DNA of 64,000 nt from an uncultured Gammaproteobacteria bacterium (GTDB lineage Bacteria; Pseudomonadota; Gammaproteobacteria; DRLM01). A model generated the notes under the pieces. The model was not told the origin of the DNA. It saw nothing but the letters and a program-made list of their open reading frames with translations, and ran no database searches. Where the stretch lies: contig CAVSNY010000006.1 in assembly GCA_963729605.1 (NCBI GenBank), positions 416,001 through 480,000 of the forward strand, in the 5' to 3' direction. How positions within the stretch are numbered: position 1 is the stretch's first letter; each line of letters starts with the position of its first letter. Both the position numbers and the translations under genes were made by a program. Shown piece by piece: positions 14,713-40,229 of this stretch.

Positions 14713-14746
14713 AAGTCTATTCCTTGATAGGGGGGCTATCTGTACG

Positions 14747-16319: not shown

Positions 16320-17024
16320 TCACTGCGCCGGCGCCACCGACAACTCCCGCCGGCCACTCTCGGCCGAATCCGCATCCGGACTATTGCGATCAACCCACTC
16401 TTGACCGCGCCGTGCCAGCCACTCCGCCTCTTCCTTGGGCAGCGGGCCGCGCTTGAGGGTATTCTCCCATTCCCACAACGCGGCGCGGGCGCGCCGCACG
16501 TAATCTTCCGACGCCGGATCCGAAGGTGCGAGATGGATGTAGGTACGCATGGCGCCCAAGGCGACGGGCAGGTCATTCATGCCTTCCGCCGCGACCGCCA
16601 GGCCCCAATAGGCATTGCCTTGATAAGGCCGCAGGTCGACGGCGGTTTGGAAAAAATCCCGCGCCGCGGCGTATTGCTCCAAGCCCAACAGCGCATAACC
16701 CATGTTGACGTATGCCTCCGGCATGCGCGGCGCGAGGGCGATGACCCGGTGCAGGGCGGTGATGGCGTATTCGTATTCGCGGGCATGCAGCATCATCACC
16801 GCTTGCTGGAAGCGTTGGGTGATTTGTTCTTCGCGAGCGGCGCTGGCGTGTCCGCGCGGATCTAGCACCGGGTCGATGCGCGGGGCGACCGTGTCTTCCA
16901 AGGTCGCCAATTCCGGGCTGCGGCTGAGTCCGCCCAGCAGGCCGATGATGGCCAGCAGCAACAGCACTGACAGGAAAGAGGCGACCTTGGGCTGGCCGGC
17001 AATCACGCTATCGAGCGAACTCAT
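16320..17024 (-). CDS. Membrane-anchored TPR protein
   Basis: N-terminal TM; TPR pattern PEAYVNMGYALL/AYWGLAVA; overlaps the ccsA stop. Confidence 0.8.
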   Translation of the reverse strand: MSSLDSVIAGQPKVASFLSVLLLLAIIGLLGGLSRSPELATLEDTVAPRIDPVLDPRGHASAAREEQITQRFQQAVMMLHAREYEYAITALHRVIALAPRMPEAYVNMGYALLGLEQYAAARDFFQTAVDLRPYQGNAYWGLAVAAEGMNDLPVALGAMRTYIHLAPSDPASEDYVRRARAALWEWENTLKRGPLPKEEAEWLARRGQEWVDRNSPDADSAESGRRELSVAPAQ

Positions 17025-17878
17025 ATAACGCCTTTATGCGCGGCGGTGCTGTAGAAGGGCGTACCGAAATAGGTGAGGAAGGCGATGATGAAGATCGCGA
17101 TGATGAATACCGCACCGGCCCGCATCGGCAGTCGATAGGTCAAGCGCGCATGGATGGCGCCGCCTAAGGCCAGCCAGGTGAGAAACGACGAAGTTTCAAG
17201 CGCGTCCCATGACCAGTAACGGCCCCAGGCGTCCTGCGCCCACACCGCGCCGGCGATCAGCATGCCGCTGTGAAAGATAAAGGCGAGCAGCATGAAACGC
17301 CACGCCAGGTAATCGACCATGGCGTCATTGGGCAATTGGCGGAACCAAGGTTCCAGACGCCGCACGCCGCGCAGCAACAAAGCGCCGGCTAGACCGGTGC
17401 CGACCAGGCAGAAGCCGAGGAAGAATTTACCGAGACCGACATGCGCCCACAGCCAATTGTTGTAATAGGTGGGCGGAAAGGCGGTGTCGGTGGGTTCGAG
17501 CATCAACACCCACACACCCAGGATCCACATCAAGGGCAAGGCCACTACCGCGCTGGCGCGGATCGCCGGATAACGCCAATAGGCGTAGCTGTAAATGACG
17601 CCGAGGCTGAACAACTGGCTTATCAACAATTCGAAGAGATTGACGAATGGCCCGTGACCGATGCGCATCCAGCGTTCCGCCAAGGCCATCGCCAGCAGCG
17701 CGACGCCGGCGAGAATGAAGATGAACGCCGGGGTTTCGTAGCTGCGATTCACCGCGGCGCCCGCCGCGCCGCCGCGCGTCAGCACCACGCCGCGAATCAC
17801 AATAAAAGTGGCCAAGGCATACGCGGCCATTCCCGCCCACAACCAGGGTAGCTCGGTCATCGTTTTCCACTCATTCAT
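17021..17878 (-). CDS. ccsA: Cytochrome c biogenesis protein CcsA/ResC (system II)
   Basis: WWD motif GAVWAQDAWGRYWSWDALE, conserved His residues, multiple TM helices. Confidence 0.88.
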   Translation of the reverse strand: MNEWKTMTELPWLWAGMAAYALATFIVIRGVVLTRGGAAGAAVNRSYETPAFIFILAGVALLAMALAERWMRIGHGPFVNLFELLISQLFSLGVIYSYAYWRYPAIRASAVVALPLMWILGVWVLMLEPTDTAFPPTYYNNWLWAHVGLGKFFLGFCLVGTGLAGALLLRGVRRLEPWFRQLPNDAMVDYLAWRFMLLAFIFHSGMLIAGAVWAQDAWGRYWSWDALETSSFLTWLALGGAIHARLTYRLPMRAGAVFIIAIFIIAFLTYFGTPFYSTAAHKGVI

Positions 17879-18903
17879 ATTGCACCCCCTTTGGAAGAAG
17901 CGGGATATCTTCCCGCCTTCATTGCCTCGGCGGCCGCCCCGGCCGGCATGCGCGCGCCGAATTTACGCCAGAAATGGACGGACATGCCTATCACGCCGAA
18001 TACCGATATCACGAACAGCCACTGCAAGGTGGGATCGTAAAATATTTTATAACCCATCCAGGTCGACAGGCGTTCATACCGCAACTGTCCGCCGGGTAAA
18101 TTCACGGTCTCGCCCGGCTGTAGTTCGACGCGATCGGCGCCGGTGTTGACCACGAGCGTGCCTTTGGCCTTTTGGCCGTCCAATACCCACGCCGCTTTTT
18201 CCGTTATGCCGGTTTCGAGGCGCAGCCAGAATTTGATCTCCGGCCCACCGGGCGGCTGCCAGGTATTGTCCTGTTTGAATTCGAACAAGGGATAGGCCGG
18301 CATGTGCACCACGCCGGTCTGCGGCTCACCCCGCTCGGGCATCCAGGTCAGCAGCGGCGCGAAACCTTTGTTGAACGAGGTGTAGAAACGATAGCCTTCC
18401 AACACCAGAGGCCGGTCGTCACCGACTATGCGGCGTTCCCAACCGCCTTGCCCGTCCGGCACGCGCACCTCGCTGTGGGTGAGACCGCGTACCATGCCCG
18501 GCGCGTAATCGACGGTATAAGGCCCTTGCACGAAGACCAGTTTATCCAAATTACCCGCATGCCAGGGACCGCGGGTATCGTCGAACAATTCGTCGGCGGA
18601 AAACGGGGTGTCCTGCACCATCTCCACATGGGCCTCCAAGTGGGTGAGACGGCCTATCGCGGCCAATATCACCACGCCCAGCAGCGCGATATGAAACGTG
18701 AGCAGGCCGCCGCGGCGATTGATCCGCGGGTTGGTGATGATGGCGGCCAATAGATTGACCGCCAAAAACGCCATGGGCACCACCAGCACCCACACCGAGG
18801 TCGTCACCGGGTTGCCATAACTCAACCCCGCGCCGATGGCCAGCAACACCATGCCCACCAAGGTGAGCCGCAGGGAGGCGAGAGGTCTCAGGACGGCATT
18901 CAT
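17875..18903 (-). CDS. resB: Cytochrome c biogenesis protein ResB/CcsB-like
   Basis: LASLRLT N-terminus, TM helices with His (TFHIAL), periplasmic domain, YDP before the C-terminal TM; adjacent to ccsA. Confidence 0.8.
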   Translation of the reverse strand: MNAVLRPLASLRLTLVGMVLLAIGAGLSYGNPVTTSVWVLVVPMAFLAVNLLAAIITNPRINRRGGLLTFHIALLGVVILAAIGRLTHLEAHVEMVQDTPFSADELFDDTRGPWHAGNLDKLVFVQGPYTVDYAPGMVRGLTHSEVRVPDGQGGWERRIVGDDRPLVLEGYRFYTSFNKGFAPLLTWMPERGEPQTGVVHMPAYPLFEFKQDNTWQPPGGPEIKFWLRLETGITEKAAWVLDGQKAKGTLVVNTGADRVELQPGETVNLPGGQLRYERLSTWMGYKIFYDPTLQWLFVISVFGVIGMSVHFWRKFGARMPAGAAAEAMKAGRYPASSKGGAI

Positions 18904-21587
18904 GGAAGATTGTTGCAGGTTTCTTCACCGTTGCCGTTCATCCACGTAATACCTCGCTTGCCATTGCCCGGCGCGCCGGCTGAACCGCAACTGACCGGCG
19001 TCCATTCACCGCTGCGTTTGAAGTTGACCACCTTCAGCACCGAGCCGTTGTAATACGGCCCGCGGTAATAACGCTGCGGGCTGGGCGTGCGCACCTGAGT
19101 GCCCGCCGGCAAACCGGCTTCCAGTCCCACGTCGTTCAAGTTGACCAGGAAGTTTTTATTCTTCCAGCCGTGGGGCACGGCGATATGGCAGAAATTGCAG
19201 CGGAAATTGCGCACCACGTCTTCCTTGGCGTGACCGGTATGGAGATTGACGTTGGGCACGCCCACGCAAGACGCATTACCGGTGCTGCGCCGGAAACCGC
19301 TCTGCAAGGTTTGATTGCCGGCCAAAGGACCGGCGGGAAATGCTTTGCCGTAGTAATCGTAATTATGGCAGCGGAAACACAAGGCGTCGGGGGTGGCCGC
19401 GCCGGTATTGTCGTTCCACGGACCCTTCAGAATAAAATCATTGTTCGAACCGTGCGGTCCCCAGGAATTGCCTTGCGCACCGCCGCGCGGCACGGCGCCG
19501 TCATTGACGTCGGTATCCGAACCATGGCAATCGGTGCAATACATGGTCTGGGTACCTACGCCCGCGTTGAAAGGCGTTACCCAGACATCGGGACTATTGA
19601 TGCTGCGTACCGCGATCGTGCGCCCGGTGTCCTTGAGCGCGGGGTGCCAGGACCGATGATTGTTGTCCACCAGATTGACGCAGTTGCCCTGACTGTCACG
19701 ATAACCCGGCCAATTTTCCGAAGTCGCGTAATTGGCGTCGGTATAGGTGTCCTGGCATTCGCCTATGGCACCGGTGAAGAACGCGCCGGTCGGTGTAGTG
19801 GGAGTGCCCTCGCCTTTGTGATCGTCCGGCGATTGATATTCCATGGCCTGATTGGTGTATTGGAACATCGCGTTGGTCCCCGGCGGCGTACCGCCCCGGA
19901 AGGATCCCAGGTTGGGCGGTGAATCATACGCGTTGTTGGAGTGGCACTTCATGCACACCTGGTATTCGCGAGTGACGTAAGGCGCATTGACGTCGGTGCT
20001 GCCGCCCACGCCGGGATCACCGCGTTTGATCTCGAAGATCGTTGGCTCGCTGCCGAACTCGGTCGACGGCCAACCGCCCGGTTCCACGCCGGAAATACCG
20101 CGCAATACGCCGGAAGCCAAATTGGTGTGGATACCGCCGGTGGCGGCGAGCTGACTGGCGGTATGATTGTGGGTGCCTTCCTCCGGGTCAGGTATGTTGG
20201 GATCATCGTTGAATAACCGATTGCGGATCACCCGATGGGGATTGTGGCAGTCGGTACATTCCGCATGGCGGTTGTTGGGATCGCCTTTGCCCATGTGGAG
20301 AGTGGATTCCACGAAATCTTTACCGCCTTGCTGGCTCCTGAGCGGGCCGGTGCCAATGTCGTGCATCTCGCGCCCGGCCGGTTGATCGGCGCTGGCGATG
20401 GGCATGTGCCGGGCCATGGTGGTGAAGTCGGTTTTAATGTCGGGCACGCCGAAGCCGGGGCGGGTGCTTTGGGTGCCGCCGGTAGGACCGCCGCGCAGCA
20501 CGTCGCCGTCCGCCGAATGACAGGCGTAACAGGTTTCTTCGATGGCCGGTTGTCCCCCATGACGGAATTTGGCGCCGCTCGCGGTGATCGCCGGCGGGCC
20601 GTCGGCGCCTTCACGCAGAATGCGCCGCGAGCCTTGCACGGTGTGGGGATCATGGCAATTCAAACAGGCCGCCTGCCACACTTGGATGCCGCGGGGAAAT
20701 TCGCGGAGATCGGCCGCGGCATCTTGGTACTCATAGGTGGCGACGGCGGAGCTGGCGTGAGCCGAACCGACCCAGCCCGCCTTGTCGTGGCAGCCCAGGC
20801 AAATGATGTCGTTCTCGGCGTTGAACTGGCGATCCACCGGCTCTGCTCTCTGAAAGCGGTTCGCCCGCAGAAACTTGATATTTTCCCCCGAGGTATCGCG
20901 GATATGGGGATCGTGACAACTGACGCATTCCAAGCGATTTTCTTCCAAGGGCAGCAACGGCGCGGGCTGGCCTTGCACCCGGTCGCCCACATGGGCAACC
21001 ATAGCGGGATCATACAGCTCACCGTCACGCTCGGCTTGCGCGCTGTCGTAGGTAAAGGAGATGGGATGGTCGTTACGCAAATCCACGCCCAATCTGCGGG
21101 TGAAGCCGGTGGTGGATCCCATGCCTTCGGGAATGGTATCGCCCGGTCCGATGCCCGGGCCGGTGAAATCGATATTGGGATCTTCGACGCGATTGAGCAC
21201 ATTGACCGCGCCCAGGGCGAGGGTGCCGTCATGGCAGGATAAACACAATTTAGACTTGGCGCGCGGCTGATCCAGATCGATCGCGTCGAGCGAGCCGGAG
21301 GAATACGGCGTATAGGTGGTACCGGAGAGTTTGCGGTTCCACAACGGCGCCATGGGCGCCTTGGTCGCGCCGTGCGGCGTGTGACAGAAGGCGCATATCT
21401 GCGACTCGCTGCTGGCGGCGGCATTGCGTTGCGCGCCGTCGGGCAGGATGGGGATCACCGTCGCGGAAAAATTGTGCCTGGTGTTGCGGATATCGGAAAT
21501 ACGTTCGGCCTGCGCCGGCAGGGCGGATAAAATCAAACACGCAGCGGTCAGCGCGAGGATGCACCCGTTTCGCAGCGTCCGTATCAT
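18900..21587 (-). CDS. Secreted undecaheme cytochrome c (UetJ-like) with an OmcE-like N-terminal module
   Basis: Signal peptide AQA; 11 CxxCH counted: CAFCH, CLSCH, CVSCH, CLGCH, CLNCH, CYACH, CTDCH, CMKCH, CTDCH, CFRCH, CNFCH. Confidence 0.9.
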   Translation of the reverse strand: MIRTLRNGCILALTAACLILSALPAQAERISDIRNTRHNFSATVIPILPDGAQRNAAASSESQICAFCHTPHGATKAPMAPLWNRKLSGTTYTPYSSGSLDAIDLDQPRAKSKLCLSCHDGTLALGAVNVLNRVEDPNIDFTGPGIGPGDTIPEGMGSTTGFTRRLGVDLRNDHPISFTYDSAQAERDGELYDPAMVAHVGDRVQGQPAPLLPLEENRLECVSCHDPHIRDTSGENIKFLRANRFQRAEPVDRQFNAENDIICLGCHDKAGWVGSAHASSAVATYEYQDAAADLREFPRGIQVWQAACLNCHDPHTVQGSRRILREGADGPPAITASGAKFRHGGQPAIEETCYACHSADGDVLRGGPTGGTQSTRPGFGVPDIKTDFTTMARHMPIASADQPAGREMHDIGTGPLRSQQGGKDFVESTLHMGKGDPNNRHAECTDCHNPHRVIRNRLFNDDPNIPDPEEGTHNHTASQLAATGGIHTNLASGVLRGISGVEPGGWPSTEFGSEPTIFEIKRGDPGVGGSTDVNAPYVTREYQVCMKCHSNNAYDSPPNLGSFRGGTPPGTNAMFQYTNQAMEYQSPDDHKGEGTPTTPTGAFFTGAIGECQDTYTDANYATSENWPGYRDSQGNCVNLVDNNHRSWHPALKDTGRTIAVRSINSPDVWVTPFNAGVGTQTMYCTDCHGSDTDVNDGAVPRGGAQGNSWGPHGSNNDFILKGPWNDNTGAATPDALCFRCHNYDYYGKAFPAGPLAGNQTLQSGFRRSTGNASCVGVPNVNLHTGHAKEDVVRNFRCNFCHIAVPHGWKNKNFLVNLNDVGLEAGLPAGTQVRTPSPQRYYRGPYYNGSVLKVVNFKRSGEWTPVSCGSAGAPGNGKRGITWMNGNGEETCNNLP

Positions 21588-22651
21588 GCGCCCTCTCTCA
21601 GGAACTGAAGTATGACCACCCGGCCATTAAAACTGTCGGCGATGTAGACCCGGTCGCGGTGATCGGTCCACACTCCCGCCGGCAGATAAAATTGCCCGAG
21701 CCCCCCGCCCGTACCGCCGATCGGCAACAATAACTCACCTTCGGGGTTGAATACTAACAAATAATCAAAATACGATTCTACCACATAGACATTGCCGTCT
21801 TTATCCACGCCGACGCCCTTGGGGCGCGGCATGTCGCCCACGAATATCCCGCGGCGGCCGAACACTTGCAAAGGCTCGCCATCGGCGGACACCACCTGCA
21901 CCCGGGCGTTGAGGGTATCCGTCACATAGAGCCGATTATCGGCGAAGCTCAAATATGTGGGGGAGTTATATTCACCGGCCGCCTCGCCGCGGTGACCGAA
22001 GGTTTTCACCAATTCGCCGCCGTCGCTGAATACTTTGATGGCGTGGCCGTGGGTGTCGGCCACATAAATCCGGCCGTTCTCCGCATCCCGCGCCACGCCC
22101 GTGGGCCGCACCAACTGGTCTTTACCAAGAATGCCGCGCGGAACACCGTCTTTATTCAAACGGACCACGTAACCCAGTTCCGCGTCGGCCACCAGGATTT
22201 CGCCGTCGGCGCCCAACGCGATCCCGATCGGGGCAACGAACCGGACATTGTCGCCGGCCATCTCCCACACCCGCAAACTACCGGCCTGCTCATCGAACAC
22301 ATAGACCGCTTGGCGGCTGACGTCGGTGACATACACCCGGCCCGCCGGGTCGGTCACTCCGCCCTGCGGCCGCTGCAAGACCACCGGCACATGTTTGGGC
22401 GAGGTCAAGCCGACCAGCCACTTCAAAAAGCGCGTGCCGCTGGACCCGAAACCTTGCTCGGGGACGTGGATATTTTGTTCGCCGACGAGCTCGCCCACAT
22501 ACTGATACCGCGGCGTCTCGGGCGGCGCGGGCCACACCGCCGTGAAAGGCGGATCGGGCTGATAACGCAGCGTGCTGTGGGTCGGCGCGCATCCCGCCAA
22601 TATCGCGGACGCGACCAACAACCCCGCCGCGAACTTGGCACGTCTCACCAC
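21584..22651 (-). CDS. NHL-repeat beta-propeller lipoprotein (UetI-like)
   Basis: Lipobox LAGC; repeats of PxGV...IYVAD, YVTDTLNARVQ, YIADSFNGRV. Confidence 0.88.
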   Translation of the reverse strand: MVRRAKFAAGLLVASAILAGCAPTHSTLRYQPDPPFTAVWPAPPETPRYQYVGELVGEQNIHVPEQGFGSSGTRFLKWLVGLTSPKHVPVVLQRPQGGVTDPAGRVYVTDVSRQAVYVFDEQAGSLRVWEMAGDNVRFVAPIGIALGADGEILVADAELGYVVRLNKDGVPRGILGKDQLVRPTGVARDAENGRIYVADTHGHAIKVFSDGGELVKTFGHRGEAAGEYNSPTYLSFADNRLYVTDTLNARVQVVSADGEPLQVFGRRGIFVGDMPRPKGVGVDKDGNVYVVESYFDYLLVFNPEGELLLPIGGTGGGLGQFYLPAGVWTDHRDRVYIADSFNGRVVILQFLREGA

Positions 22652-22667: not shown

Positions 22668-23723
22668 TTATTGTTGCGTTTTGAATCCGCCTGCCGAGAT
22701 CTTGAACACTTGGATACGGCCGTTGAGACTGTCGGCCACGTATAAAGACCCCCCATCCAGCCACACGTCGCTCACGCCGTTGAAGCGGCCGGGCCCCACC
22801 CCGGCGCCGCCAAGGGTCGCGACCAACTTACCTTGCTCGAATATCCGTACGGTGTTATTAAAAAAGTCGGAGACGTAAGTTTGATTATCGGCGTCGACCG
22901 CCACGGCATTGGGAAACACCACGGTATCGGGATCGAAGGCGTATTTGAACGCGCCTTCCTCCGAGAGGACTTGGGCGCGATGGGCGAAACGCGCGGTGAC
23001 ATATACACCGTCGGGACCGCGAGCCATGGAGGTGATATTCAAGAATTCACCCTCGCCTTCACCGCGGCCACCCAGGGCGCGCCACAAACCGCCCGCGCCA
23101 TTGAAGATCAACACGTGATCGAGCACGCCGTCGGCGACGTAGACATCGCCGGTGGTCTCGTCCACCGACACCGCCACCGGCCGCCGCAGATTCATGGAAT
23201 CCTGGAAGGTGGCCTCCAGACGGCCATTGCGATTGAACTTGAGCACCTTGCCGCCGACGCTATCGGCGAGATAAAACGTGCGGTCGCCGGTGACGAAGAT
23301 ATCCGCCACATCGCCGACCACCAGCCCGCGCAAACTGACCAGCACTTCCTGGGTTCCGGAAATACGATCATAAAGGATCACCTGCTGCTGATCGGCATCG
23401 ACCACGTACACCCAGTGATCTTTGGCCGCCACCGCCACCGGACGGCGGAAACGCGCATCCTGCAAGAGCACCAGGCCTTCCGTGTCGCCGGTCATCACCG
23501 GCCGCAGCTCGCCGTTGCCGAAAAAGGCGTTGCCGGTCCGGCCGCCACTGATGCTTTCTTCAAAATAAATTTGGGTCGAACCGGTCTCGGCGACCACCAC
23601 GCCTTCGGCGCCCGAGGACATGGGGGTGCCGCCGAACATGGAACATCCGTTCAGTAGCCAGGTGCTGCCGATCAGCAGCGCGGTCAGCGCAGCCCGGCGG
23701 AATCGCGCGGTACGGAGTGGCAT
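22668..23723 (-). CDS. NHL-repeat beta-propeller lipoprotein (UetH-like)
   Basis: Start reassigned to ATG 23723 (MPLRTARF...LLNGC lipobox); RPVAV, VYVAD, YVADSLNGRIQ repeats. Confidence 0.85.
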   Translation of the reverse strand: MPLRTARFRRAALTALLIGSTWLLNGCSMFGGTPMSSGAEGVVVAETGSTQIYFEESISGGRTGNAFFGNGELRPVMTGDTEGLVLLQDARFRRPVAVAAKDHWVYVVDADQQQVILYDRISGTQEVLVSLRGLVVGDVADIFVTGDRTFYLADSVGGKVLKFNRNGRLEATFQDSMNLRRPVAVSVDETTGDVYVADGVLDHVLIFNGAGGLWRALGGRGEGEGEFLNITSMARGPDGVYVTARFAHRAQVLSEEGAFKYAFDPDTVVFPNAVAVDADNQTYVSDFFNNTVRIFEQGKLVATLGGAGVGPGRFNGVSDVWLDGGSLYVADSLNGRIQVFKISAGGFKTQQ

Positions 23724-24286
23724 CGTCCACAATTCATGGTGGGAGGGAAGGCGACCTTGCCATGGCAAACACCGCAGTATTTGCCTTGGATGATGTCCGA
23801 CATGGTAACCGGATTTGCCCCTTTCTGGGGAAGAAAAATCGCGGGATGGCAATTGGCGCAGGTCAACCATTCCGTGTGGGCCAAATGGGGAAAGCGCACG
23901 AAGGGCATGGAACCGGTATTCTTGAAAATGATGTCGAAGTCGGCGACATACATATCCTTGTCGCCCAGCTTGCTCTGCCGCGCGTCGATCATGCCCTTTT
24001 GCAGCACTTGCACCCAATCGATGATGCCGGCGGCGTCGCGCGGGAAATCCTTCATGGATTCCACCGGCTCTTGGAAAATGGTGACGGCGCTGTTGGTGGG
24101 ATCGTGGATACCGTCTTCGATGACGGGCACCACCTCACCTTCGGTTTGGAAGTGCAGGCCCTTGGTCCACACCGGGCCATCTTCCGCGTGCGCCACGACG
24201 GCCCAACCGAAAAACAGGGCGATGGCCACAGCGAAATATCCGCGGAGATTATTCTTAAACGCGTATCGCTCGACGCCTTTATTCAT
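23684..24286 (-). CDS. c7-like triheme cytochrome (UetG-like)
   Basis: Signal peptide AHA; FPHLAH, CANCH, CGVCH, CGRCH. Confidence 0.88.
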   Translation of the reverse strand: MNKGVERYAFKNNLRGYFAVAIALFFGWAVVAHAEDGPVWTKGLHFQTEGEVVPVIEDGIHDPTNSAVTIFQEPVESMKDFPRDAAGIIDWVQVLQKGMIDARQSKLGDKDMYVADFDIIFKNTGSMPFVRFPHLAHTEWLTCANCHPAIFLPQKGANPVTMSDIIQGKYCGVCHGKVAFPPTMNCGRCHSVPRDSAGLR

Positions 24287-24408: not shown

Positions 24409-26028
24409 CTATTGCACACCCGCCAGCCGCAAAGCCCTTTGTATCCTTTCGGTCGCCGCCTGCATCGCCATCACGGCCATTTTGTGATCGCCCTTGGCCG
24501 CCAATCCCAAGGCCTCGTCATGAACCTCGGTGGCGCGACCGGTCAGTTCGTGCATCATGGTCACCGTTTGCGGCGCCGGACGGCGTTGCTCGATGGCCAC
24601 GGGCACCAGTTCCACGTAACTGCGGTAACGGGACAGCTCGAACTCATATTCATCTTTAGGCGAGGCGAAGTTCTTGTCATAGACCACGGTCTGCGAGTGC
24701 AACATCGCGCTCAAGGCCGCGGTGATCAGCTCATTGGCCGATTCCAGCCGCTTGGCCGCGCCTTCGTGATCGCCTTTGCCCGCCAGGCTTTCCGCCTCGC
24801 TCAGCAGCTTGTCGTATTTGGCCTTGTCCAATTCCTCGCCCGCTTTACCGGGCTTCATGCCCTGCGCCACGTTTTTCTGGTAAGAGGCCTTAAAACCGCC
24901 GACCTGTTCCAGCAAGGCGGCGTAACGGGCTTTGTGGTCCACCGCCGGTTGCTCGGGAACTAAACGGGTGGCGGCATTCATCATCCGCAAGGCCTCGTCC
25001 ACCGAGCCCATGGCCTGGTTATTATCACCGGCGGCGAGCGCGGTACGCACGGCGATCAACTGCTCCTTCGCCCCGGCGACCAAGGCTTGCGCCTCGGCGT
25101 TATTACTGGCGGCCACCCGCTTGGCGGAGGCGGACGAGCCGATCAGCATATCCGCGAAACTCAGCTTCTGCTTCACTTGCTCCGCCGTATAGTTGCGGAC
25201 TATCGGGGTCTCTGCCGCGGGCAGCGCGGGCGGCGCACCCAAGCTCACCTTTTCCCCAGCGTTGACCACGTGAATCCTGCCACCCATATAAGCGTGGTTA
25301 CGGCATTCGTAATACACCTCGTCCGGTGTCGTGGCCGACGGTGTAAAGGTCGCGTCGCCCTTGAAAATAAACTGGCCGGTGATACCGTCGGTCAAGGTGC
25401 CCGCACCGCGGCCCACCGGGCTGGTCGTGAAATAAAAATCGTGCATCACCCCGGTGTCCAAACTAAACGTGTAGGTTACGCCGCGGGTCAGCACCAGCTC
25501 TTTGCCCTGCACGCCGTCCGTCACGAACGCCATGTCCGAACCACGGCCGAAATAAGGGTGACTGGCGTCCTTGGGTCCGGCGACCAACTGAAAAGTTCGC
25601 GGTGTACGATCAGCCACTACGGTGACCGGACCGGGGCGTTGCGCGGCCGGCACGCTTGCCGCGGGTTTGGACGGGACCGGGCTGGGCGCCACTACGGCGG
25701 GGGGCGCGACTACCGGCGCAGGCGCCGCAGCGGGCGGAACGGCTTCGGCGGTTGGAACAACGTCGGCGGGTGGCGCGGATAAATCGGTTTTATTTTCCGG
25801 CGCGGTCTGCGGTGATTCCTCTACCGGCGCGGACGGGGCCTCCGTGCTGCCGGCCTCCGGTTGCGTGAGGGCGTCGTCCGTGGTGGTGGCGACTACACTC
25901 GGCGATTGCGCCGACATGACCGGCGCCGGCGCGGCGGTCTGCGCGACCTCTTTCTTTTCACCGGTGGACACACACGCCGTCATCGCCACCGCGATCGCCA
26001 GACATAACAATTTACGCTTTGAGTTCAT
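24409..26028 (-). CDS. Lipoprotein with Pro/Ala linker, cupredoxin-like motif and helical C-terminus (UetF position)
   Basis: Lipobox MTAC; PA-rich linker; MHDFYF...YYECRNHAYMGG. Confidence 0.8.
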   Translation of the reverse strand: MNSKRKLLCLAIAVAMTACVSTGEKKEVAQTAAPAPVMSAQSPSVVATTTDDALTQPEAGSTEAPSAPVEESPQTAPENKTDLSAPPADVVPTAEAVPPAAAPAPVVAPPAVVAPSPVPSKPAASVPAAQRPGPVTVVADRTPRTFQLVAGPKDASHPYFGRGSDMAFVTDGVQGKELVLTRGVTYTFSLDTGVMHDFYFTTSPVGRGAGTLTDGITGQFIFKGDATFTPSATTPDEVYYECRNHAYMGGRIHVVNAGEKVSLGAPPALPAAETPIVRNYTAEQVKQKLSFADMLIGSSASAKRVAASNNAEAQALVAGAKEQLIAVRTALAAGDNNQAMGSVDEALRMMNAATRLVPEQPAVDHKARYAALLEQVGGFKASYQKNVAQGMKPGKAGEELDKAKYDKLLSEAESLAGKGDHEGAAKRLESANELITAALSAMLHSQTVVYDKNFASPKDEYEFELSRYRSYVELVPVAIEQRRPAPQTVTMMHELTGRATEVHDEALGLAAKGDHKMAVMAMQAATERIQRALRLAGVQ

Positions 26029-26224: not shown

Positions 26225-26926
26225 CTAACGCCAGGGATTCTTAAGCGTGGCGTCGCTCAACGGCGGCGACCAATCCGCGGGCTTGGGCTTGGAGTGGCAC
26301 TTGGAGCAGGTCTTGGTGGTGATCGGGAAAGAAACCTTGCCATGACACACACCGCACTTCTGTCCCAACAGAATGGCCGACATATTGATTTGGTTGGCCC
26401 CTTTCTGCGGGATGAAGATGGCGGGATGACAGTTGGCGCAGGACAGCCATTCGGTGTGTTGACGATGGGGGAACACCACGTCCGGCACCGAGGCCTTCAC
26501 CTCGCGGACGATATCCATGTCCATCACGAAGGGCTCTTCGCTGGAATCGATACGGTCCCAGCGGGGTGAGAGCTTCTTCTCGTCGATGGCCTTCACCCAG
26601 TCGACATGATTGCCGAACTCGGTGGTGGGCAGACCTTTATAGGCCTCCTTAGGCGGCTGGAGAATATGGGTGCCTTCGTTCTCCGGATCGTGATAGCCGC
26701 TCTCCGGCGGCGCCGCGTTGGGATCCTTTTCCTTCTTCAAATTGCGGTTGAAGGTGTTGGAGGACGAGACATCGGCGAGCATCAAGCGTTCGCCGGGCGC
26801 CGCCTGCTGCATGGCACCACTAAACAGACCCGCGTCCGCGGCGAAGGCGGAAGCAGAAACCAGCAGGGTCAACACCGCTGATCCTACAAAGATTTTCAAT
26901 TGTTGTGTCATGACCACGCTCCTCAC
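26225..26926 (-). CDS. c7-like triheme cytochrome (UetE-like)
   Basis: Signal peptide AFA; FPHRQH, CANCH, CGVCH, CSKCH. Confidence 0.88.
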   Translation of the reverse strand: MRSVVMTQQLKIFVGSAVLTLLVSASAFAADAGLFSGAMQQAAPGERLMLADVSSSNTFNRNLKKEKDPNAAPPESGYHDPENEGTHILQPPKEAYKGLPTTEFGNHVDWVKAIDEKKLSPRWDRIDSSEEPFVMDMDIVREVKASVPDVVFPHRQHTEWLSCANCHPAIFIPQKGANQINMSAILLGQKCGVCHGKVSFPITTKTCSKCHSKPKPADWSPPLSDATLKNPWR

Positions 26927-26935: not shown

Positions 26936-27382
26936 TTACTGTTTGGCAGGCTGTTGTGGAGCGTTGAGCGCCTTATAAGGTGGCGACACTAGACGCTGCA
27001 CGGTGCTCCCGTGAATGTGGGTCGGCGTGCCAGGTATGCCGGAATGGCACATATTGCAGTTCTCCACGGACCAAGCCACCTCCCCGTTATGGCAAGCGCC
27101 GCAGAATTTACCGTCGATGATCTTGGCCATGGTGATCTTGTTGCCGCCGGCTTTGAACTCGAATCCCAGGTCGGCATGACAGACCTTGCAAGTGAAACGA
27201 ATACGATGAAACCAGTGCGGGAATACCACGGGACGCATACCGGCCGCGTCGGCGTAATTATTAATGATCACATCGGCATATTCCGCTTTGGCGGGGGTCA
27301 TGGCCAGCAGGGCCAGTCCCGCTAACACCCCCAAAATGGAAAATCTCCATTTGATGCTACGGTCGGCTTTGTAGGACGTCAT
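26936..27382 (-). CDS. c7-like triheme cytochrome (UetD-like)
   Basis: Signal peptide AKA; FPHWFH, CKVCH, CGACH, CNMCH. Confidence 0.88.
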   Translation of the reverse strand: MTSYKADRSIKWRFSILGVLAGLALLAMTPAKAEYADVIINNYADAAGMRPVVFPHWFHRIRFTCKVCHADLGFEFKAGGNKITMAKIIDGKFCGACHNGEVAWSVENCNMCHSGIPGTPTHIHGSTVQRLVSPPYKALNAPQQPAKQ

Positions 27383-27460: not shown

Positions 27461-29212
27461 TTAAAATCGGCGCATCACGCGAAAGTATAAGAGCTGCGAA
27501 GCCTCGTGGCCGTTATCCATCCATCTGAAACTCAGGCTGGCGTCCACCAATCCGATGGTGTAATTCAGGCGGTTTTCCCATTCGTTGCGATCCAAACCCT
27601 CACCCGTGGAGGCTTGCGAGAGCCGCAGGTCGGAGTTGAATTGCAGGCGCGGAATACTGAACAGGGTTTGCTGAAGATAACTGATCTGACCGGTGGTGGT
27701 GGTCACCGAGCCGTCATTGGCTCCACCGGAGAAATCGCGCACCACCGTCTGCAACGTCAAATGGCCCGACAACGTGCTGCGCGCACCCAAGGCCTGATAA
27801 CGCGAGGCCTGCAAATTCACCAGCTGCTGCTCATCGCTCAGATCACCGAAATTACGCGAATCCGACAAGGTGAGTTGCACCAGGGTGGTCGCACCCTGAG
27901 TGGACGACTGATTCCAGCCCAAGCTTGCGCTGTGATCCAGGCGATGCTGAGTGGCCTCATCACCGGTGGTCAACACCTCGTTGAAGGCCTGAGTCAGACC
28001 CACGCGCAAAGACGATTGCGGGTCCAGCATCCACATCCTCTGCGCATCGTGACCCAATGAGGCCTGTAACGACTGGACGTTTTCATCCACGTCGCTCTGG
28101 TTTTCCAGCGCGCCGCTGACATACCACTGATACGTAAAACTCCGCCATTCGATCAGATCGGATTGCAGCAGGGCGCCAAGTCGCTGGCGATGCAGGGTTT
28201 GATTGGCGCCATTGATATCCGACTGACTGAAATTGGCGCTGCCGTCAAAGCGCAGCCGTTTCGAATATTGATAGAAGGCGCCCGCCGTCGCGCCGAAGCT
28301 GGCTTGATCGCTGGATTGCGCGGAATTTTCGCCGGCCATGGTATAGGCGCGCGCGCCCGCGCTGACCGTCCAGCGTTTATCGACCGGCCGCCAGAACGTG
28401 AAGCTGGATACCTGGTTGATTTCCGTGGTGACGGTATCCACCAAGCCGGTCGCCCCTTCGAAGGTGGTATCGAGATGGTAATGGCTGGCCTTGGTGTCGA
28501 GCCGGATATCCTCGTTGGGGAAATAATAATGATCGACGTCGAGAATGAAATTTTCTTGGTGGCGATCGGTGCGCGACTGATCGGTGGTTTCTATATTGCC
28601 GCGGAACAACAAGCGCTGGCGGACCGGCCGCCAGTCCAATTCCACGCCCATAATTTCGTTTTCATAGGTACCGCTCAGGTCCGAATCCCAGGTGCGCGCA
28701 CCATATCGCAACTGGGCGCGATGGCCTTCTTCGGTGATGTACGATTGCCGCAAATCCAAATTGGTGGTTTGGTATTCCGAACCGAACACCCGCACCAGCG
28801 GGTTGTAGACCACGGTATTGTCCACCCGGCTGTCGGTGGCTTGATACAACAAGCGGAAAGGGGTGCGGCTGTCCGGCAACACGTTGAGCATCAGGTCGCC
28901 GGAATACACGTCCGAGGTGGTGCTGGTGCTGGCGTTGCCGTCGTCCAGGTCCGAGCTGTCCTTGGCCAGGGTGGCGCCGCCCTCGACGGTGGCGAACCAC
29001 GGCTGCCAGATATAAGAGCGTAAGCGCAGATTTCCCAACAACTGGTTGCTGGTGGCGTCGGTGGTATCGGTGCTGAGCGAACGGAAACTGTAACCCACGC
29101 TGCCTGACACATCCACGGGCAAGGCGCGCGCCGCGGGGCACACGGACACCAGCGCCACCAGCGCCAAGCCCTGGGTGACGTGAGATGCGAACGCAGCACA
29201 GACCCGTCTCAT
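27461..29212 (-). CDS. Large outer-membrane beta-barrel of the cytochrome cluster (UetC-like)
   Basis: Signal peptide ARA; alternating amphipathic strands; C-terminal YFRVMRRF beta-signal. Start set at ATG 29212. Confidence 0.8.
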   Translation of the reverse strand: MRRVCAAFASHVTQGLALVALVSVCPAARALPVDVSGSVGYSFRSLSTDTTDATSNQLLGNLRLRSYIWQPWFATVEGGATLAKDSSDLDDGNASTSTTSDVYSGDLMLNVLPDSRTPFRLLYQATDSRVDNTVVYNPLVRVFGSEYQTTNLDLRQSYITEEGHRAQLRYGARTWDSDLSGTYENEIMGVELDWRPVRQRLLFRGNIETTDQSRTDRHQENFILDVDHYYFPNEDIRLDTKASHYHLDTTFEGATGLVDTVTTEINQVSSFTFWRPVDKRWTVSAGARAYTMAGENSAQSSDQASFGATAGAFYQYSKRLRFDGSANFSQSDINGANQTLHRQRLGALLQSDLIEWRSFTYQWYVSGALENQSDVDENVQSLQASLGHDAQRMWMLDPQSSLRVGLTQAFNEVLTTGDEATQHRLDHSASLGWNQSSTQGATTLVQLTLSDSRNFGDLSDEQQLVNLQASRYQALGARSTLSGHLTLQTVVRDFSGGANDGSVTTTTGQISYLQQTLFSIPRLQFNSDLRLSQASTGEGLDRNEWENRLNYTIGLVDASLSFRWMDNGHEASQLLYFRVMRRF

Positions 29213-29513
29213 TGTTATTATCGCGCGCCCCTCAGTGACATATCCCCTCGAAGCCTCCACCCGGCGCTCCCCCGGATGGCGAGCTACAACGCGCGCGCGG
29301 ACATTGCCCCCGTCCGCCGTCGTGCGCATTGCCGCGCGCCGTAAATTTTTTCACCTTAAGCGACCTCGCACCTCAATGCAAGATCACTCGCCCTCAACGA
29401 CCGGCGCCACTCATTTTTAATCGCCTAGCGGCGCCCACTCTCCCTTGCCCGCCCTGATGTCGCCCGACAATCCCTCCTTGATCGGGACTGAAAATTAATA
29501 CATCGGCCGCAAT

Positions 29514-30329
29514 TTATTTATTATGACAAGTTAAACACACGGCGCTGCCCGCTGGGTCAACGCGAAGGAAAGTGGGGGTCTCATCCACGTGGGGATCATG
29601 GCAGGAGCCGCACTCCACATAAGGCTGCGCCTCGCCCGCATACGCCCCCCGCGTCGCCACCCGGGTATACAGCTTCATATCGGTACGTTCGAAGGATTGA
29701 GTCCCCTCGGGGGTATTGACCCACCACACCCGGCTGGTGCCCATGATCTCTGAATTGGCGGGATGAAAATCCCGGTCCGCGCCCGGTCCGCCCGCGTTCG
29801 ACAGTGAATAACCACCACCCGCGTATTGAATACCGATAGGATGGTCGTTGGTGAGATCCTTGCCCAAATTAGTGATCACCGCCGGCCGGCCGATGCGGCC
29901 TTGCGCGGGCCGCGCCTGTCCGCTCCAGGCCCCGTTGCGAAAACCGGGCACCTGCACGCCGGAGCCCGGCTCGTTGATCAAGGTATCCATGGCTTGCGTG
30001 CCGTCGTGGCAGGAAAGGCAGGCGACCGAGACCGAACCTATCGGCTCGATGGACCCATCGAGGGTGGTGGTGCCGAGTTGATCGTAGGTTTCGTAGCCGG
30101 TGGGGTCGATGTTGCGGTTCCATAATGGAACGGCCGCGCTGGCGTTGGCCCCATGAGGCGTATGACAAAATACGCAGATCTCCCGCGTGCCGTCGATATT
30201 GCTCACGGCATTCAGCCCCCCCGCACTCAAGTTGTGCTTGGTATTAAATACGCCGCCGAGGCTCACGCCCCCCGCCAACCACAGCAGCGTCGCTCCGGCA
30301 AAAACCAAAGCGCGATAACCGGTTTTCAT
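29514..30329 (-). CDS. Secreted tetraheme cytochrome c, OmcE-like (UetA-like)
   Basis: TKHNLS, ICVFCHTPH, PLWNR, CLSCHDG, LGKDLTNDHPIG, ECGSCHDPH, FLR, SAVCLTCHNK. Confidence 0.9.
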   Translation of the reverse strand: MKTGYRALVFAGATLLWLAGGVSLGGVFNTKHNLSAGGLNAVSNIDGTREICVFCHTPHGANASAAVPLWNRNIDPTGYETYDQLGTTTLDGSIEPIGSVSVACLSCHDGTQAMDTLINEPGSGVQVPGFRNGAWSGQARPAQGRIGRPAVITNLGKDLTNDHPIGIQYAGGGYSLSNAGGPGADRDFHPANSEIMGTSRVWWVNTPEGTQSFERTDMKLYTRVATRGAYAGEAQPYVECGSCHDPHVDETPTFLRVDPAGSAVCLTCHNK

Positions 30330-30614
30330 CACTCGCCCCTTTAAAGGGTTTTCCGCCGTCAGATTTTGTCAACTTAGGCGCTAAGTTACAAGTGTTTAAA
30401 CTGACTATGGCCATCGGCGCGCAAAACCTTGTGATTCGCCCGCTTCCAAAGTTAGTCAAAACGGCGCGGGAGCCGAAAATGACCGCGCATCAAAACCAGC
30501 GGCCGCGGCCCTTCCCGTCTCAACGCCTCATCAAACGCGCTTGATTATTTTAGCGACGTCGCCTGACAGTGGAGCAACCGTTGACCGTTCACATCCAACC
30601 GGACATATCGACAT

Positions 30615-30645
30615 AAAAAAGGGCGCCTGCAGGCGCCCTTTTTTC
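30615..30645 (-). terminator. Rho-independent terminator of porin 1
   Basis: AAAAAAGGGCGCCTGCAGGCGCCCTTTTTT. Confidence 0.85.
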
Positions 30646-30663: not shown

Positions 30664-31710
30664 TTATTTCGAAGAAAATTTATGGTTGATACCCAATGAC
30701 AGGGCCGACGCATCCTGGCCGGTCACCGAGTTCAACCTGGTCAAGTCATAATTGCCATTGTCGCCATTGCTCATCAGGTTGTACATCGCGTACAACTCGG
30801 TGTTCTTGGTGAAGTTGCGAAACACGCCCAAGGCGAAATGGGTGGCGCCGGAATCGGCCTCCGAGTCTTTTTCATCGGCCATGGCGACCGAACCCTTCAG
30901 CGTATAACCCTCCAGCTTATGGGCCACGCTCACCAGAAAGGCATTGCGCTGATTGTCGGCGCCGCCCTCATCGGCGCTTTCAAAAATCGCCCCCACCGTG
31001 GTGGGACCGAAGGCATAGCTGCCGCCCACCTTCATGGCCACCGCATCGTCGCCGTTGGTGTGATAGGCATTGAGCGACTCGTAAGCGGCGGTGAGGTACC
31101 AGGGACCGCTGTTGTAACTGCCGTTCACGCTGTAGACATCGCGATCGCTCTACCGCGTGGTCATGGGCAGATCGTCATCGCCCCGATGATCGGCAAACAC
31201 ATAGCCCAGCATCGCGCTGAAGCCGTTCATGCTCGGCGTCGTGTAGATGATAATGTTGGAGGCGCGGCGATCGAACAATTTATTGCCGTCGTCCACGCTG
31301 CCGATGATGGCGTTGAAATCGCCCTTGGTCTCGGCAAAGATATCCAGCTTGGAGGTGGCCCTTTTATAGGGGGTATCGTGTTTGCCCGCCAGCACCTGAC
31401 CAAATCCGCCCGTCAGACCCACAAAGGTGTTGCGCTGGCTGCTGAACGCCGCGCCGTCGTCAAAATCCACCTGCTGCTCGATCTGCCACAAGGCGGCGAG
31501 TCCGTTACCCAAATCCTCGTCGCCCTTGAAACCCAGACGGGAATCGTAGCTGGTCAGACTAATGGCGCTGTCTTCATTGCCCGCCGTGGGGTCATTATTG
31601 TTATTGAAATCCAACGAGACATAAGCCGCCCCATACACCTCCACGCCGGCCTGCGCCAACGGCGCCATCATGGCAGCCACGACACCCGCGGCGATCATAT
31701 GTTTATTCAT
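30664..31710 (-). pseudogene. Gram-negative trimeric porin with an in-frame TAG at 31150-31152
   Basis: The two track ORFs share one frame (PMTTR*SDRDVYSVNG). SRLGFKGDEDLGNGL and GINHKFSSK are shared with the two neighbouring paralogs. Confidence 0.8.
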
Positions 31711-31891
31711 TATTCCCCCTCGACTATATTGAACCCCGTCTAAATCAACCCCGTCGATCAAAAACCGCCTTGCGCCGCGCGCTGGTCTGATGTTGATATC
31801 TTCCCGTGAAAAATCAGCACGGTAATCGCTCAACAGTCTAACAGTAGCGCATAGCCGCCTTTGTCACAACGCTCTCCTGCATGCGTTTCTC

Positions 31892-39579: not shown

Positions 39580-39622
39580 CGTAGCGCTTCGCTAATCTAA
39601 GGAAACGCAATGCGGCGCGTGC

Positions 39623-40229
39623 TCCTCCCCGCCTTTTCAAGGCGGGGTGGCCCGCAGGGCCGGGGTGGTTGGAGTCGAAGCCGATACTTTGTCCGCCAAC
39701 CACCCCGTCGCCTGCGGCGCCACCCCTCCTCGTTTGAGGAGGGGATAAGATTCATAAAGAACGACGCATTAACACTCAGGCGCGCCCTGGCGGATTGATC
39801 CACGCCCTGACTCTTTCCGCCACCGCAACGAAACCCTATGGCGCACATCCTCTTCCCCGCCTTTTCAAGGCGGGGTGGCCCGTCAGGGCCGGGGTGGTTG
39901 GAGTCGAAGCCGATACTTTGTCCGCCAACCACCCCGTCGCCTGCGGCGCCACCCCTCCTCGTTTGAGGAGGGGATAAGATTCATAAAGAACGACGCATTA
40001 ACACTCAGGCGCGCCCTGGCGGATTGATCCACGCCCTGACTCTTTCCGCCACCGCAACGAAACCCTATGGCGCACATCCTCTTCCCCGCCTTTTCAAGGC
40101 GGGGTGGTTGGAGTCGAAGCCGATACTTTGTCCGCCAACCACCCCGTCGCCTGCGGCGCCACCCCTCCTCGTTTGAGGAGGGGATAAGATTCATAAAGAA
40201 CGACGCATTAACACTCAGGCGCGCCCTGG
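39623..40229. repeat. Tandem array of about 2.7 copies of a ~228-bp unit containing an inverted REP-like doublet
   Basis: GCCTTTTCAAGG recurs at 39631, 39859 and 40088; units are almost identical; the third lacks the inner CCCG(T)CAGGG hairpin. Confidence 0.93.

What the first reader, a model, noticed from the sequence alone, without database searches (positions are those of the whole stretch)
29514..30329. First gene of the operon is a motif-for-motif OmcE homolog, a candidate polymerising nanowire subunit
Seen: TKHNLS, ICVFCHTPH, PLWNR, CLSCHDG, NLGKDLTNDHPIG, ECGSCHDPH, FLR, GSAVCLTCHNK-stop, with a Sec signal and no lipobox. Established, from my recollection of the sequence: G. sulfurreducens OmcE carries TKHDLS, ICVFCHTPH, PLWNR, CMSCHDG, NLGTDLSNDHPV, ECGSCH, FLR, GSKLCLGCHKK and forms tetraheme filaments. 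Inference: this protein polymerises head-to-tail. Its first position, separated by ~300 bp from the barrel gene, would allow the higher expression a filament subunit needs.
Basis: partly seen in the sequence, partly recalled or inferred. Interest (0 to 1): 0.88.

Follow-up and report, generated by a model that had tools for sequence, protein, structure and literature searches.

The report
OmcE-type tetraheme subunit gene (UetA)
This gene encodes a secreted four-heme cytochrome clearly related to the two OmcE proteins known to build conductive protein nanowires, and it heads an already described electron-uptake gene cluster (uet), so it is a credible but unproven nanowire subunit.

Summary
The gene lies on the minus strand (ATG 30329 to stop 29514, 271 aa) and every listed motif is present. 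It is a genuine OmcE homolog: against solved structures it hits only the two OmcE filaments (9YUQ E 7.8e-28, 7TFS E 4.9e-24; family profile 1.3e-46). All four CXXCH motifs and three of the four extra histidines are invariant in 146 homologs; the fourth is kept in at least 90%.

The locus is not new. It is the published uet cluster of Tenderiales-like Gammaproteobacteria, and this gene is UetA. It is followed by a beta-barrel, three c7 trihemes, two NHL beta-propeller lipoproteins, the undecaheme UetJ, ResB/CcsA and a TPR protein. That is the neighbourhood a 2026 paper uses to pick nanowire-capable OmcE homologs.

Polymerisation remains an inference.

The "300-bp spacer for high expression" idea is not supported. 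The gap is where uetB (a SurA-like PPIase) was lost in this clade, and it holds no conserved RNA structure.

One new point: UetJ's N-terminus is itself a complete OmcE-like module, which makes it a candidate filament base or anchor.

The parts
29514..30329 (-). uetA: secreted tetraheme c-type cytochrome of the OmcE family (271 aa). This is the finding.
   Evidence: ORF; motifs; PDB hits 9yuq 7.8e-28 and 7tfs 4.9e-24; profile 1.3e-46; 94-65% identical orthologs in Gammaproteobacteria, Chromatiaceae and Ca. Tenderia MAGs.
30363..30391 (-). Promoter-like element TTGTAA-N17-CAAAAT, about 35 nt upstream of the ATG.
   Evidence: Both hexamers are invariant in the window and 4 relatives, while the flanks diverge. 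Read from the sequence. It matches 8 of 12 consensus positions, so the scan did not list it. Its function is inferred.
30615..30638 (-). GC-rich hairpin plus T-run: terminator of the upstream porin remnant, which sets uetA apart as the first gene.
   Evidence: Read from the sequence. Only sub-threshold sRNA-like Rfam hits lie on it. Not listed by the scan.
29213..29513 (-). 301-bp non-coding gap at the position where most relatives carry uetB (SurA-like PPIase).
   Evidence: No ORF of 70 aa or more here or in L004-L007 and L043; at least one such ORF in 66 of 71 loci. PPIase domains in 3 of 3 scanned. No conserved fold.
27461..29212 (-). uetC: 583-aa outer-membrane beta-barrel.
   Evidence: No Pfam or NCBIfam family. 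Language-model neighbours are named outer-membrane beta-barrel families. AXA signal peptide and C-terminal Phe. Adjacent to uetA in 71 of 80 loci and in 35 of 39 UetA-positive genomes of a class sample.
26936..27382 (-). uetD: c7-type triheme cytochrome.
   Evidence: TIGR04257 nanowire_3heme 3.8e-19; 3 CXXCH.
26225..26911 (-). uetE: c7-type triheme cytochrome.
   Evidence: TIGR04257 2.5e-17; 3 CXXCH.
24409..26028 (-). uetF: 539-aa probable lipoprotein (MTAC lipobox). The literature calls it cupredoxin-like.
   Evidence: Only a weak Pfam hit below cut-off; conserved position; name from the Eddie et al. preprint.
23684..24286 (-). uetG: c7-type triheme cytochrome.
   Evidence: TIGR04257 2.1e-19; 3 CXXCH.
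22668..23723 (-). uetH: NHL-repeat beta-propeller lipoprotein (LLNGC lipobox).
   Evidence: NHL-type NCBIfam hits; N-terminus.
21584..22651 (-). uetI: NHL-repeat beta-propeller lipoprotein (ILAGC lipobox).
   Evidence: NHL-type NCBIfam hits; N-terminus.
18900..21587 (-). uetJ: undecaheme cytochrome (895 aa). Residues 12-270 (window 20778-21554) are a complete OmcE-like module.
   Evidence: 11 CXXCH. 7tfs E 1.7e-19 and 9yuq 3.3e-18. BLASTP to UetA 3e-22 over the whole of UetA. Module His and Cys conserved in 43-50 of 43-50 orthologs.
17875..18903 (-). ResB/CcsB-like system II cytochrome c maturation protein.
   Evidence: PF05140 2.2e-9.
17021..17878 (-). CcsA heme lyase and exporter.
   Evidence: PF01578 5.5e-25.
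16320..17024 (-). TPR protein (NrfG-like) that closes the cluster.
   Evidence: TPR-type NCBIfam hits below cut-off; position as in Ca. Tenderia.

Best explanation
The gene is uetA, the first gene of the uet extracellular-electron-transfer cluster of a Tenderiales-like, RuBisCO-bearing gammaproteobacterium. Its product belongs to the OmcE family of tetraheme cytochromes.

Shown:
- homology to both solved OmcE nanowire subunits;
- four c-type heme sites and eight conserved axial histidines;
- a Sec-type N-terminus;
- a strictly fixed C-terminus two residues after heme site 4;
- tight, conserved linkage to a large outer-membrane barrel, two beta-propeller lipoproteins, periplasmic c7 trihemes, an undecaheme and a dedicated system II heme-attachment pair.

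Inferred mechanism:
1. UetA is exported by Sec and matured by the cluster's ResB/CcsA.
2. It passes or mounts on the UetC barrel with help from UetH/UetI (and, in most relatives, the SurA-like UetB).
3. Outside the cell it polymerises as OmcE does. One heme of each subunit takes its sixth ligand from a histidine of the neighbouring subunit, which gives a continuous insulated heme chain.
4. In this autotroph the wire would most likely carry electrons inward, from minerals, cathodes or partner cells, via UetJ and the c7 trihemes to the respiratory chain.
For: Homology:
- phmmer against all PDB chains finds only 9yuq (D. soudanensis OmcE nanowire, 7.8e-28) and 7tfs (G. sulfurreducens OmcE filament, 4.9e-24).
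- A profile of 146 homologs hits 7tfs at 1.3e-46 over residues 7-232 of 232.

Ligands:
- H32, H56, H108, H163, H244, H247, H269 and all 8 Cys are invariant. H59 is kept in at least 90% of 146 sequences.
- All 146 have exactly 4 CXXCH and 64 have exactly 8 His.
- 142 of 146 end exactly two residues after the last CXXCH, as 7tfs and 9yuq do.

Neighbourhood:
- Petersen et al. (passages) select nanowire-capable OmcE homologs by a nearby large beta-barrel and a beta-propeller lipoprotein.
- They state that minimal omcE clusters encode two multiheme cytochromes, two beta-propeller lipoproteins, OmcE and a barrel, beside resB/ccsB. All of these are here.
- They report such homologs in Pseudomonadota.

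Linkage:
- UetA is followed by UetC in 71 of 80 loci. The 9 without it end less than 1 kb downstream.
- In an even sample of 401 genomes of the class, 39 have UetA. All 35 genomes with UetC are among those 39.
- 35 of the 37 genomes with the UetJ C-terminal part are among the 39 too.

Physiology:
- Two RuBisCO large-subunit genes in the genome.
- The uet cluster was proposed for electron uptake, and its authors already speculated about polymers.

OmcE filaments need a histidine from the next subunit.
Against: - No member of the family outside Desulfuromonadia has been shown to form a filament.
- Petersen et al. note that OmcE-like tetrahemes are widely distributed, and that D. soudanensis has two further OmcE-like proteins that do not fit the filament map.
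- UetA is 40-50 residues longer than the solved subunits, with poorly conserved insertions at about 120-150 and 175-235 that could change the subunit interface.
- Which histidine acts in trans could not be read, because the OmcE paper is not held. Conservation alone cannot tell cis from trans ligation.
- No tandem fusions of two OmcE modules turned up among the nine longer forms I read.
- The direction of electron flow is inferred from genome content and the literature only.
Confidence: 0.58

Rival explanations
1. UetA is a non-polymerising surface cytochrome. A single tetraheme unit (or a short cap) docks onto UetJ/UetC and forms the outer face of a porin-cytochrome conduit. This is how the uet literature draws it.
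For: Eddie et al. model Uet as a porin-multiheme complex and suggest that UetA and UetJ may interact. Hoover et al. and the Leptothrix paper treat it the same way. UetA and the OmcE-like module of UetJ are ancient paralogs that diversified in parallel, which is compatible with a fixed heterodimer. Not every OmcE-like protein is in a filament.
Against: Both family members with a solved structure are polymers with an inter-subunit His ligand. UetA keeps all eight His and the fixed C-terminus. A 1:1 cap would leave the open-heme / donor-His pair at the free end unsatisfied, if the fold behaves like OmcE.
Confidence: 0.3
2. UetA is a soluble periplasmic tetraheme shuttle (c3/STC-like) with no extracellular role.
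For: Databases annotate it as a 'cytochrome c3 family protein'. It has only a Sec signal and no recognisable secretion tag.
Against: The cluster already has three periplasmic c7 trihemes. The only structural relatives by sequence are extracellular filaments. The Tenderia ortholog was predicted extracellular. The gene is tightly linked to a large barrel.
Confidence: 0.07
3. The similarity is only the generic signature of multiheme cytochromes (CXXCH plus His) and says nothing specific.
For: Pfam sees only the generic Paired_CXXCH_1 domain.
Against: The profile match to 7tfs runs end to end at E 1.3e-46. OmcS, another multiheme nanowire, reaches only 4.5e-5 on a 20-residue stretch, and no other cytochrome in the PDB matches.
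Confidence: 0.02

Closest known systems
OmcE nanowire subunits (G. sulfurreducens, PDB 7TFS; D. soudanensis WTL, PDB 9YUQ)
   Same: Tetraheme with the same order and spacing of four CXXCH motifs. The same four extra histidines (TKH, TPH, NDHP, CxxCHxxH). The protein ends two residues after heme site 4. Sec signal. The neighbourhood holds a large beta-barrel, two beta-propeller lipoproteins, further multiheme cytochromes and resB/ccsA.
   Different: 40-50 residues longer, with different loops. The host is a RuBisCO-bearing gammaproteobacterium rather than a metal-reducing Desulfuromonadia, so the likely electron flow is inward. No glycosylation gene block was seen next to the cluster. The cluster has three c7 trihemes and an undecaheme that itself carries an OmcE-like module. 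Filament formation is untested.
UetA of the uet cluster of 'Ca. Tenderia electrophaga' and relatives (Eddie et al. preprint 10.1101/2022.05.06.490989; Gallionella, Hoover et al. PMC10734462)
   Same: Same gene order: uetA, C, D, E, F, G, H, I, J, ccsA/B, TPR. UetA is 69-72% identical to loci titled Ca. Tenderia sp..
   Different: uetB (PPIase) is missing here and in the 5 nearest relatives. batABD does not follow the TPR gene; a Crp-like regulator and OmpA/DUF4398 genes do. The passages I saw do not link UetA to OmcE. No paper holding 'UetJ' that I checked holds 'OmcE'.
Porin-cytochrome conduits (MtrCAB, MtoAB, PCC3)
   Same: An outer-membrane barrel plus multiheme cytochromes encoded together for extracellular electron transfer.
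   Different: UetA has 4 hemes, too few to span a barrel, and shows no significant similarity to MtrA or MtrC (TIGR03507/03508 scores are far below cut-off). UetJ is the only component of this cluster long enough to span the barrel.
Five-heme OmcE-like proteins (Petersen et al.)
   Same: The same genome has one on another contig (L003:1324-2121, 5 CXXCH, 7tfs E 7.7e-15), next to a UetI-like NHL lipoprotein.
   Different: UetA has four hemes. The five-heme paralog sits on a very long branch.

Membership tests
OmcE-family nanowire subunit | Significant full-length sequence similarity to solved OmcE filament subunits | tested here: met
   9yuq 7.8e-28 and 7tfs 4.9e-24; family profile against 7tfs 1.3e-46 over residues 7-232.
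OmcE-family nanowire subunit | Four CXXCH heme sites in a small secreted protein | tested here: met
   CVFCH 52, CLSCH 104, CGSCH 240, CLTCH 265. All 146 aligned homologs have exactly 4. The Sec-like N-terminus was read from the sequence; no predictor was run.
OmcE-family nanowire subunit | Four further conserved histidines, so that all hemes are bis-His | tested here: met
   H32, H163 and H247 are invariant and H59 is kept in at least 90% of 146 sequences. Each aligns with a His of 7tfs and 9yuq.
OmcE-family nanowire subunit | One heme ligated by a histidine of the adjacent subunit (head-to-tail polymer) | not testable with these tools
   The feature is stated for OmcE. No model could be built.
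OmcE-family nanowire subunit | [quoted passage not shown] | tested here: met
   UetC barrel 301 bp downstream. UetH and UetI are NHL proteins with lipoboxes. Criterion quoted.
OmcE-family nanowire subunit | Stacked / T-shaped insulated heme chain in 3D | not tested
OmcE-family nanowire subunit | Extracellular filament observed | not testable with these tools
   Needs EM of the organism or of a heterologous host.
Uet cluster, UetA | Orthology and gene order uetA-(B)-C-D-E-F-G-H-I-J-ccsAB-TPR | tested here: met
   Order conserved in the loci with enough flank and named as. Exception: uetB is absent.
MtrA/MtoA-type barrel-spanning cytochrome | About ten hemes in an extended chain able to cross the barrel | tested here: not met
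   Only 4 CXXCH. The decaheme family scores (27.6 and 17.3 bits) are far below their cut-offs of 192 and 209.

The most novel reading that the evidence does not exclude
The uet cluster is a complete nanowire machine for electron uptake, and UetJ is its built-in filament base.

- UetJ's N-terminal 270 residues are a full OmcE-like module with the donor-type N-terminal His and all heme ligands conserved. The chain then runs straight on into seven more hemes instead of stopping two residues after heme 4.
- UetJ could therefore occupy only one end of a UetA polymer. It would wire the polymer through the UetC barrel to the periplasmic c7 trihemes.
- That would be the cluster-encoded 'anchor or tip' cytochrome that Petersen et al. 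say they could not find in omcE operons.
- It would also mean that cytochrome nanowires serve chemolithoautotrophs, such as cathode and iron oxidisers, as electron intakes.
Probability: 0.25. Interest if true: 0.75.

Novelty: new member of a known kind. Interest (0 to 1): 0.45.

Why it matters
Two literatures describe what appears to be the same machine without citing each other. One covers OmcE nanowires of metal reducers. The other covers the Uet "porin-cytochrome complex" of cathode- and iron-oxidising Proteobacteria.

If UetA polymerises, conductive cytochrome wires would also serve as electron intakes of autotrophs. A close homolog is present in about one in ten of an even sample of Gammaproteobacteria (39 of 401). 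That could explain the reported conductivity of Tenderia biocathodes.

The uet cluster is compact. It holds the subunit, barrel, two propellers, a chaperone in most relatives, an OmcE-like undecaheme and its own heme lyase. That makes it a good system for the open question of how such wires are secreted, anchored and terminated.

Tried and rejected
**Structure tools**
- Co-folding of two mature UetA copies with four hemes (collected) returned "no answer" (score 0.01, mark 0.42). Only 4 of the 8 heme sites could be filled.

**Closed or missing sources**
- The OmcE structure paper (PMC9357133) is not held, so I could not read which His acts in trans.

**The 300-bp gap**
- Its RNA folds better than shuffles (z -2.93).
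- There is no structure shared with 5 relatives (0 pairs), no canonical terminator on the coding strand and no Rfam family over threshold.
- I therefore rejected it as a conserved expression device.

**RNA libraries**
- Contigs of run X2 (a metatranscriptome) cover 29605-30037 inside uetA, plus parts of uetC and uetD, at 95-99% identity.
- X4 covers uetD and part of uetC; X1 (RNA only by guess) covers most of the stretch.
- This shows presence in RNA libraries. It does not show level, strand or transcript ends, so it cannot test "higher expression". Parts without cover say nothing.

**Rosetta-stone search**
- Nine longer homologs that I read carry an N-terminal extension (a FecR domain, PF04773, in the precomputed Pfam column for P0213 and its like), long internal insertions, or a frameshift fusion. 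None has a tandem OmcE module.

**Other**
- A ninth histidine (H189) recalls the "nine-His anchor" idea, but only 9 of 146 homologs have His there, so I dropped it.
- Atlas searches added nothing beyond generic names.
- The genomic context of the Geomonas UetJ-like protein could not be checked because no tool was open for it.

Full report
**What is there**

The + strand of 29514-30329 is closed by stops. The gene runs on the minus strand from ATG 30329 (GTG at 30332, Shine-Dalgarno-like AAAGGGG upstream) to TAA at 29514, giving 271 aa. There are four CXXCH motifs, eight cysteines and nine histidines. The N-terminus looks like a Sec signal and has no cysteine, so there is no lipobox. That is read from the sequence; no predictor was run.

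**Is it an OmcE homolog?**

Yes.
- phmmer against every chain of the PDB returns two significant hits and nothing else below E 0.2. They are 9yuq_N (E 7.8e-28) and 7tfs_A (E 4.9e-24).
- 9YUQ is the OmcE nanowire bundle of Desulfuromonas soudanensis WTL (Petersen et al.; data-availability passage). 7TFS is the G. sulfurreducens OmcE filament (legend quoted).
- A profile of 146 homologs (alignment A1) matches 7tfs end to end (residues 7-232 of 232) at E 1.3e-46 and 9yuq at 6.5e-45. OmcS reaches only 4.5e-5 on a short stretch.

Across the 146 sequences:
- All eight cysteines and H32, H56, H108, H163, H244, H247 and H269 are invariant. H59 is kept in at least 90%. These are the four proximal and four distal ligands needed for four bis-His hemes.
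- The ninth histidine, H189, is His in only 9 of 146.
- 142 of 146 proteins stop exactly two residues after the last CXXCH, as both solved subunits do.

**What the locus is**

The gene heads a co-directional cluster:
- a 583-aa outer-membrane barrel with no family;
- three c7-type trihemes (TIGR04257);
- a 539-aa probable lipoprotein;
- two NHL beta-propeller proteins with lipoboxes;
- an 895-aa cytochrome with 11 CXXCH;
- ResB and CcsA;
- a TPR protein.

This is the uet cluster (uetABCDEFGHIJ, ccsAB, nrfG) described for 'Ca. Tenderia electrophaga' and relatives (Eddie et al. preprint, passages). It has since been reported in Gallionella (Hoover et al., passages) and Leptothrix (passages). The window's gene is UetA.

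The nearest public relatives are Gammaproteobacteria, 'Chromatiaceae' and Ca. Tenderia MAGs at 94-65% identity. Thioalkalispiraceae and several Burkholderiales follow at about 50-56%.

Linkage is tight.
- The order UetA, C, D, E, F, G, H, I, J holds wherever enough flank exists. 71 of 80 loci show UetC downstream of UetA, and the other nine contigs end less than 1 kb downstream.
- 11 of 12 species genomes of the window's order carry UetA. The one without it is 83% complete.
- In an even sample of the class, 39 of 401 genomes carry UetA at E <= 1e-30.
- All 35 genomes with UetC fall among those 39. So do 35 of the 37 genomes with the C-terminal part of UetJ.
- These genomes are kin, so the counts describe linkage and are not a statistical test.

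The family is large. There are 4124 cluster representatives at E <= 1e-3 and 216 at <= 1e-30.

**Does it polymerise?**

This remains an inference. For OmcE and OmcS, one heme at the subunit interface takes a histidine from the adjacent subunit. [quoted passage not shown] Their minimal omcE cluster holds two multiheme cytochromes, two beta-propeller lipoproteins, OmcE and a barrel, beside resB/ccsB. It maps component by component onto uet. They report such homologs predominantly in Thermodesulfobacteriota and Pseudomonadota.

Against this:
- No family member outside Desulfuromonadia has been seen as a filament.
- OmcE-like tetrahemes are common, and two in D. soudanensis are not in its filament.
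- UetA carries 40-50 extra, poorly conserved residues.

I could not test the interface. Structure prediction was never available, and the single co-folding job gave no verdict (see Tried and rejected). I put polymerisation at a little under 0.6.

**The expression argument**

uetA is indeed first.
- A GC hairpin with a T-run (30638-30615) ends the upstream porin remnant.
- A TTGTAA-N17-CAAAAT element (30391-30363) is invariant in the window and four relatives amid diverged flanks.

The 301-bp gap before uetC, however, is not a conserved design.
- In 66 of 71 loci the space holds at least one ORF of 70 aa or more, most of them 280-390 aa.
- The three I scanned are SurA-like PPIases, i.e. UetB. 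In loci such as L016, L012 and L044 this ORF starts 7-26 bp after uetA.
- Only the window and L004-L007 and L043 lack it. The window's genome has no close UetB elsewhere; the best match is 32% identity to a generic PPIase.
- The gap has no shared fold, no canonical terminator and no Rfam family.

Contigs from RNA libraries cover parts of uetA, uetC and uetD, but they cannot rank expression. In Ca. Tenderia the three triheme genes were among the most highly expressed. The passages I saw gave no value for UetA, and the supplements are closed.

**UetJ**

Residues 12-270 of the undecaheme are a second complete OmcE-like module.
- It hits 7tfs at E 1.7e-19, and BLASTP to UetA gives 3e-22 over the whole of UetA.
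- Its N-terminal His, four CXXCH motifs and distal histidines are conserved in 43-50 of 43-50 orthologs.
- In a quick tree of 125 rows, UetA (79 rows) and the UetJ modules (45 rows) form two separate groups (SH-aLRT 97). In both groups the window's copy lies nearest the same relatives (L004, then L005-L007 and L043), so the duplication is old.
- Where UetA stops two residues after heme 4, UetJ runs on into seven more hemes. It could therefore sit at only one end of a UetA polymer and link it to the barrel and periplasm. This is my hypothesis and is untested.
- Petersen et al. write that no OmcE-like tip candidate is encoded in omcE operons.

A co-linear 11-heme protein exists in Geomonas oryzisoli (P0354, E 6e-39). 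I could not check its genomic context.

**Physiology**

The genome (3.48 Mb, 94% complete) has two RuBisCO large-subunit genes and a divergent ccoN-like oxidase gene below the family cut-off. SoxB was not found with that family model. Together with the literature on uet, this favours electron uptake over metal reduction. That is an inference.

**Novelty**

The cluster and the gene are published, and polymers were already speculated. OmcE homologs with barrels in Pseudomonadota are published too. What I did not find in print is the explicit link UetA = OmcE family.
- 'OmcE-like' occurs in 3 papers.
- 'Tenderia' together with 'OmcE' occurs in 3 papers. These include neither the Eddie preprint nor Petersen et al. 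In the one I opened, the two terms are unconnected.
- Two uet papers hold no 'OmcE'.
- Figures and supplements of Petersen et al. that I could not see may list such clusters.

Verdict: a sound observation and a new member of a known kind, with a testable extension concerning UetJ.

Noticed in passing
window 29213-29513: uetB, the SurA-like PPIase found between uetA and uetC in most relatives, is missing in the window and its five nearest relatives (L004-L007, L043). No close copy was found elsewhere in the genome.
   Followed up: yes
window 20778-21587 (N-terminus of uetJ): The undecaheme UetJ begins with a complete OmcE-like tetraheme module whose ligands are all conserved in its orthologs. 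It is a candidate base or anchor of a UetA filament.
   Followed up: partly
L003:1324-2121 (-) and L003:105-1247 (-), i.e. G000 contig 7 around 780.6-782.7 kb: A third OmcE-like gene in the same genome has five CXXCH motifs (7tfs E 7.7e-15). Directly downstream is an NHL lipoprotein 39% identical to UetI. A cytochrome with three CXXCH motifs lies divergently upstream.
   Followed up: partly
window 30664-31833 (-): The porin gene just upstream of uetA is split into two ORFs (227 and 154 aa). Both resemble the two intact porin paralogs at 31940-33007 and 33163-34215, so this is probably a frameshifted pseudogene.
   Followed up: partly
window 39622-40233: A tandem repeat of a 229-bp unit, 2.8 copies, 94% matches, between coq7-like and speD-like genes.
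   Followed up: no
P0213, P0273-P0338 (proteins): A large set of 490-690-aa proteins, some named from Gallionella, fuse an N-terminal FecR domain (PF04773) to a C-terminal OmcE-like module. In those I read, the TPH histidine is replaced (CHAPQ or CHTPQ).
   Followed up: no
P0354 (Geomonas oryzisoli, 582 aa): A Geobacterales cytochrome with 11 CXXCH is co-linear with UetJ, including the N-terminal OmcE-like module. Its genomic context was not checked.
   Followed up: partly
window 15468-16223 (+) and 13588-15187 (-): Where Ca. Tenderia has batABD after the TPR gene, this genome has a divergent Crp-like regulator and two DUF4398/OmpA genes.
   Followed up: no
window 5552-6325 (-); G000:C6:407914-408840: An IS4/5-family transposase lies 10 kb beyond the cluster's end. 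One of the two RuBisCO large-subunit genes lies about 7 kb before the window's first base (C6:416001).
   Followed up: no
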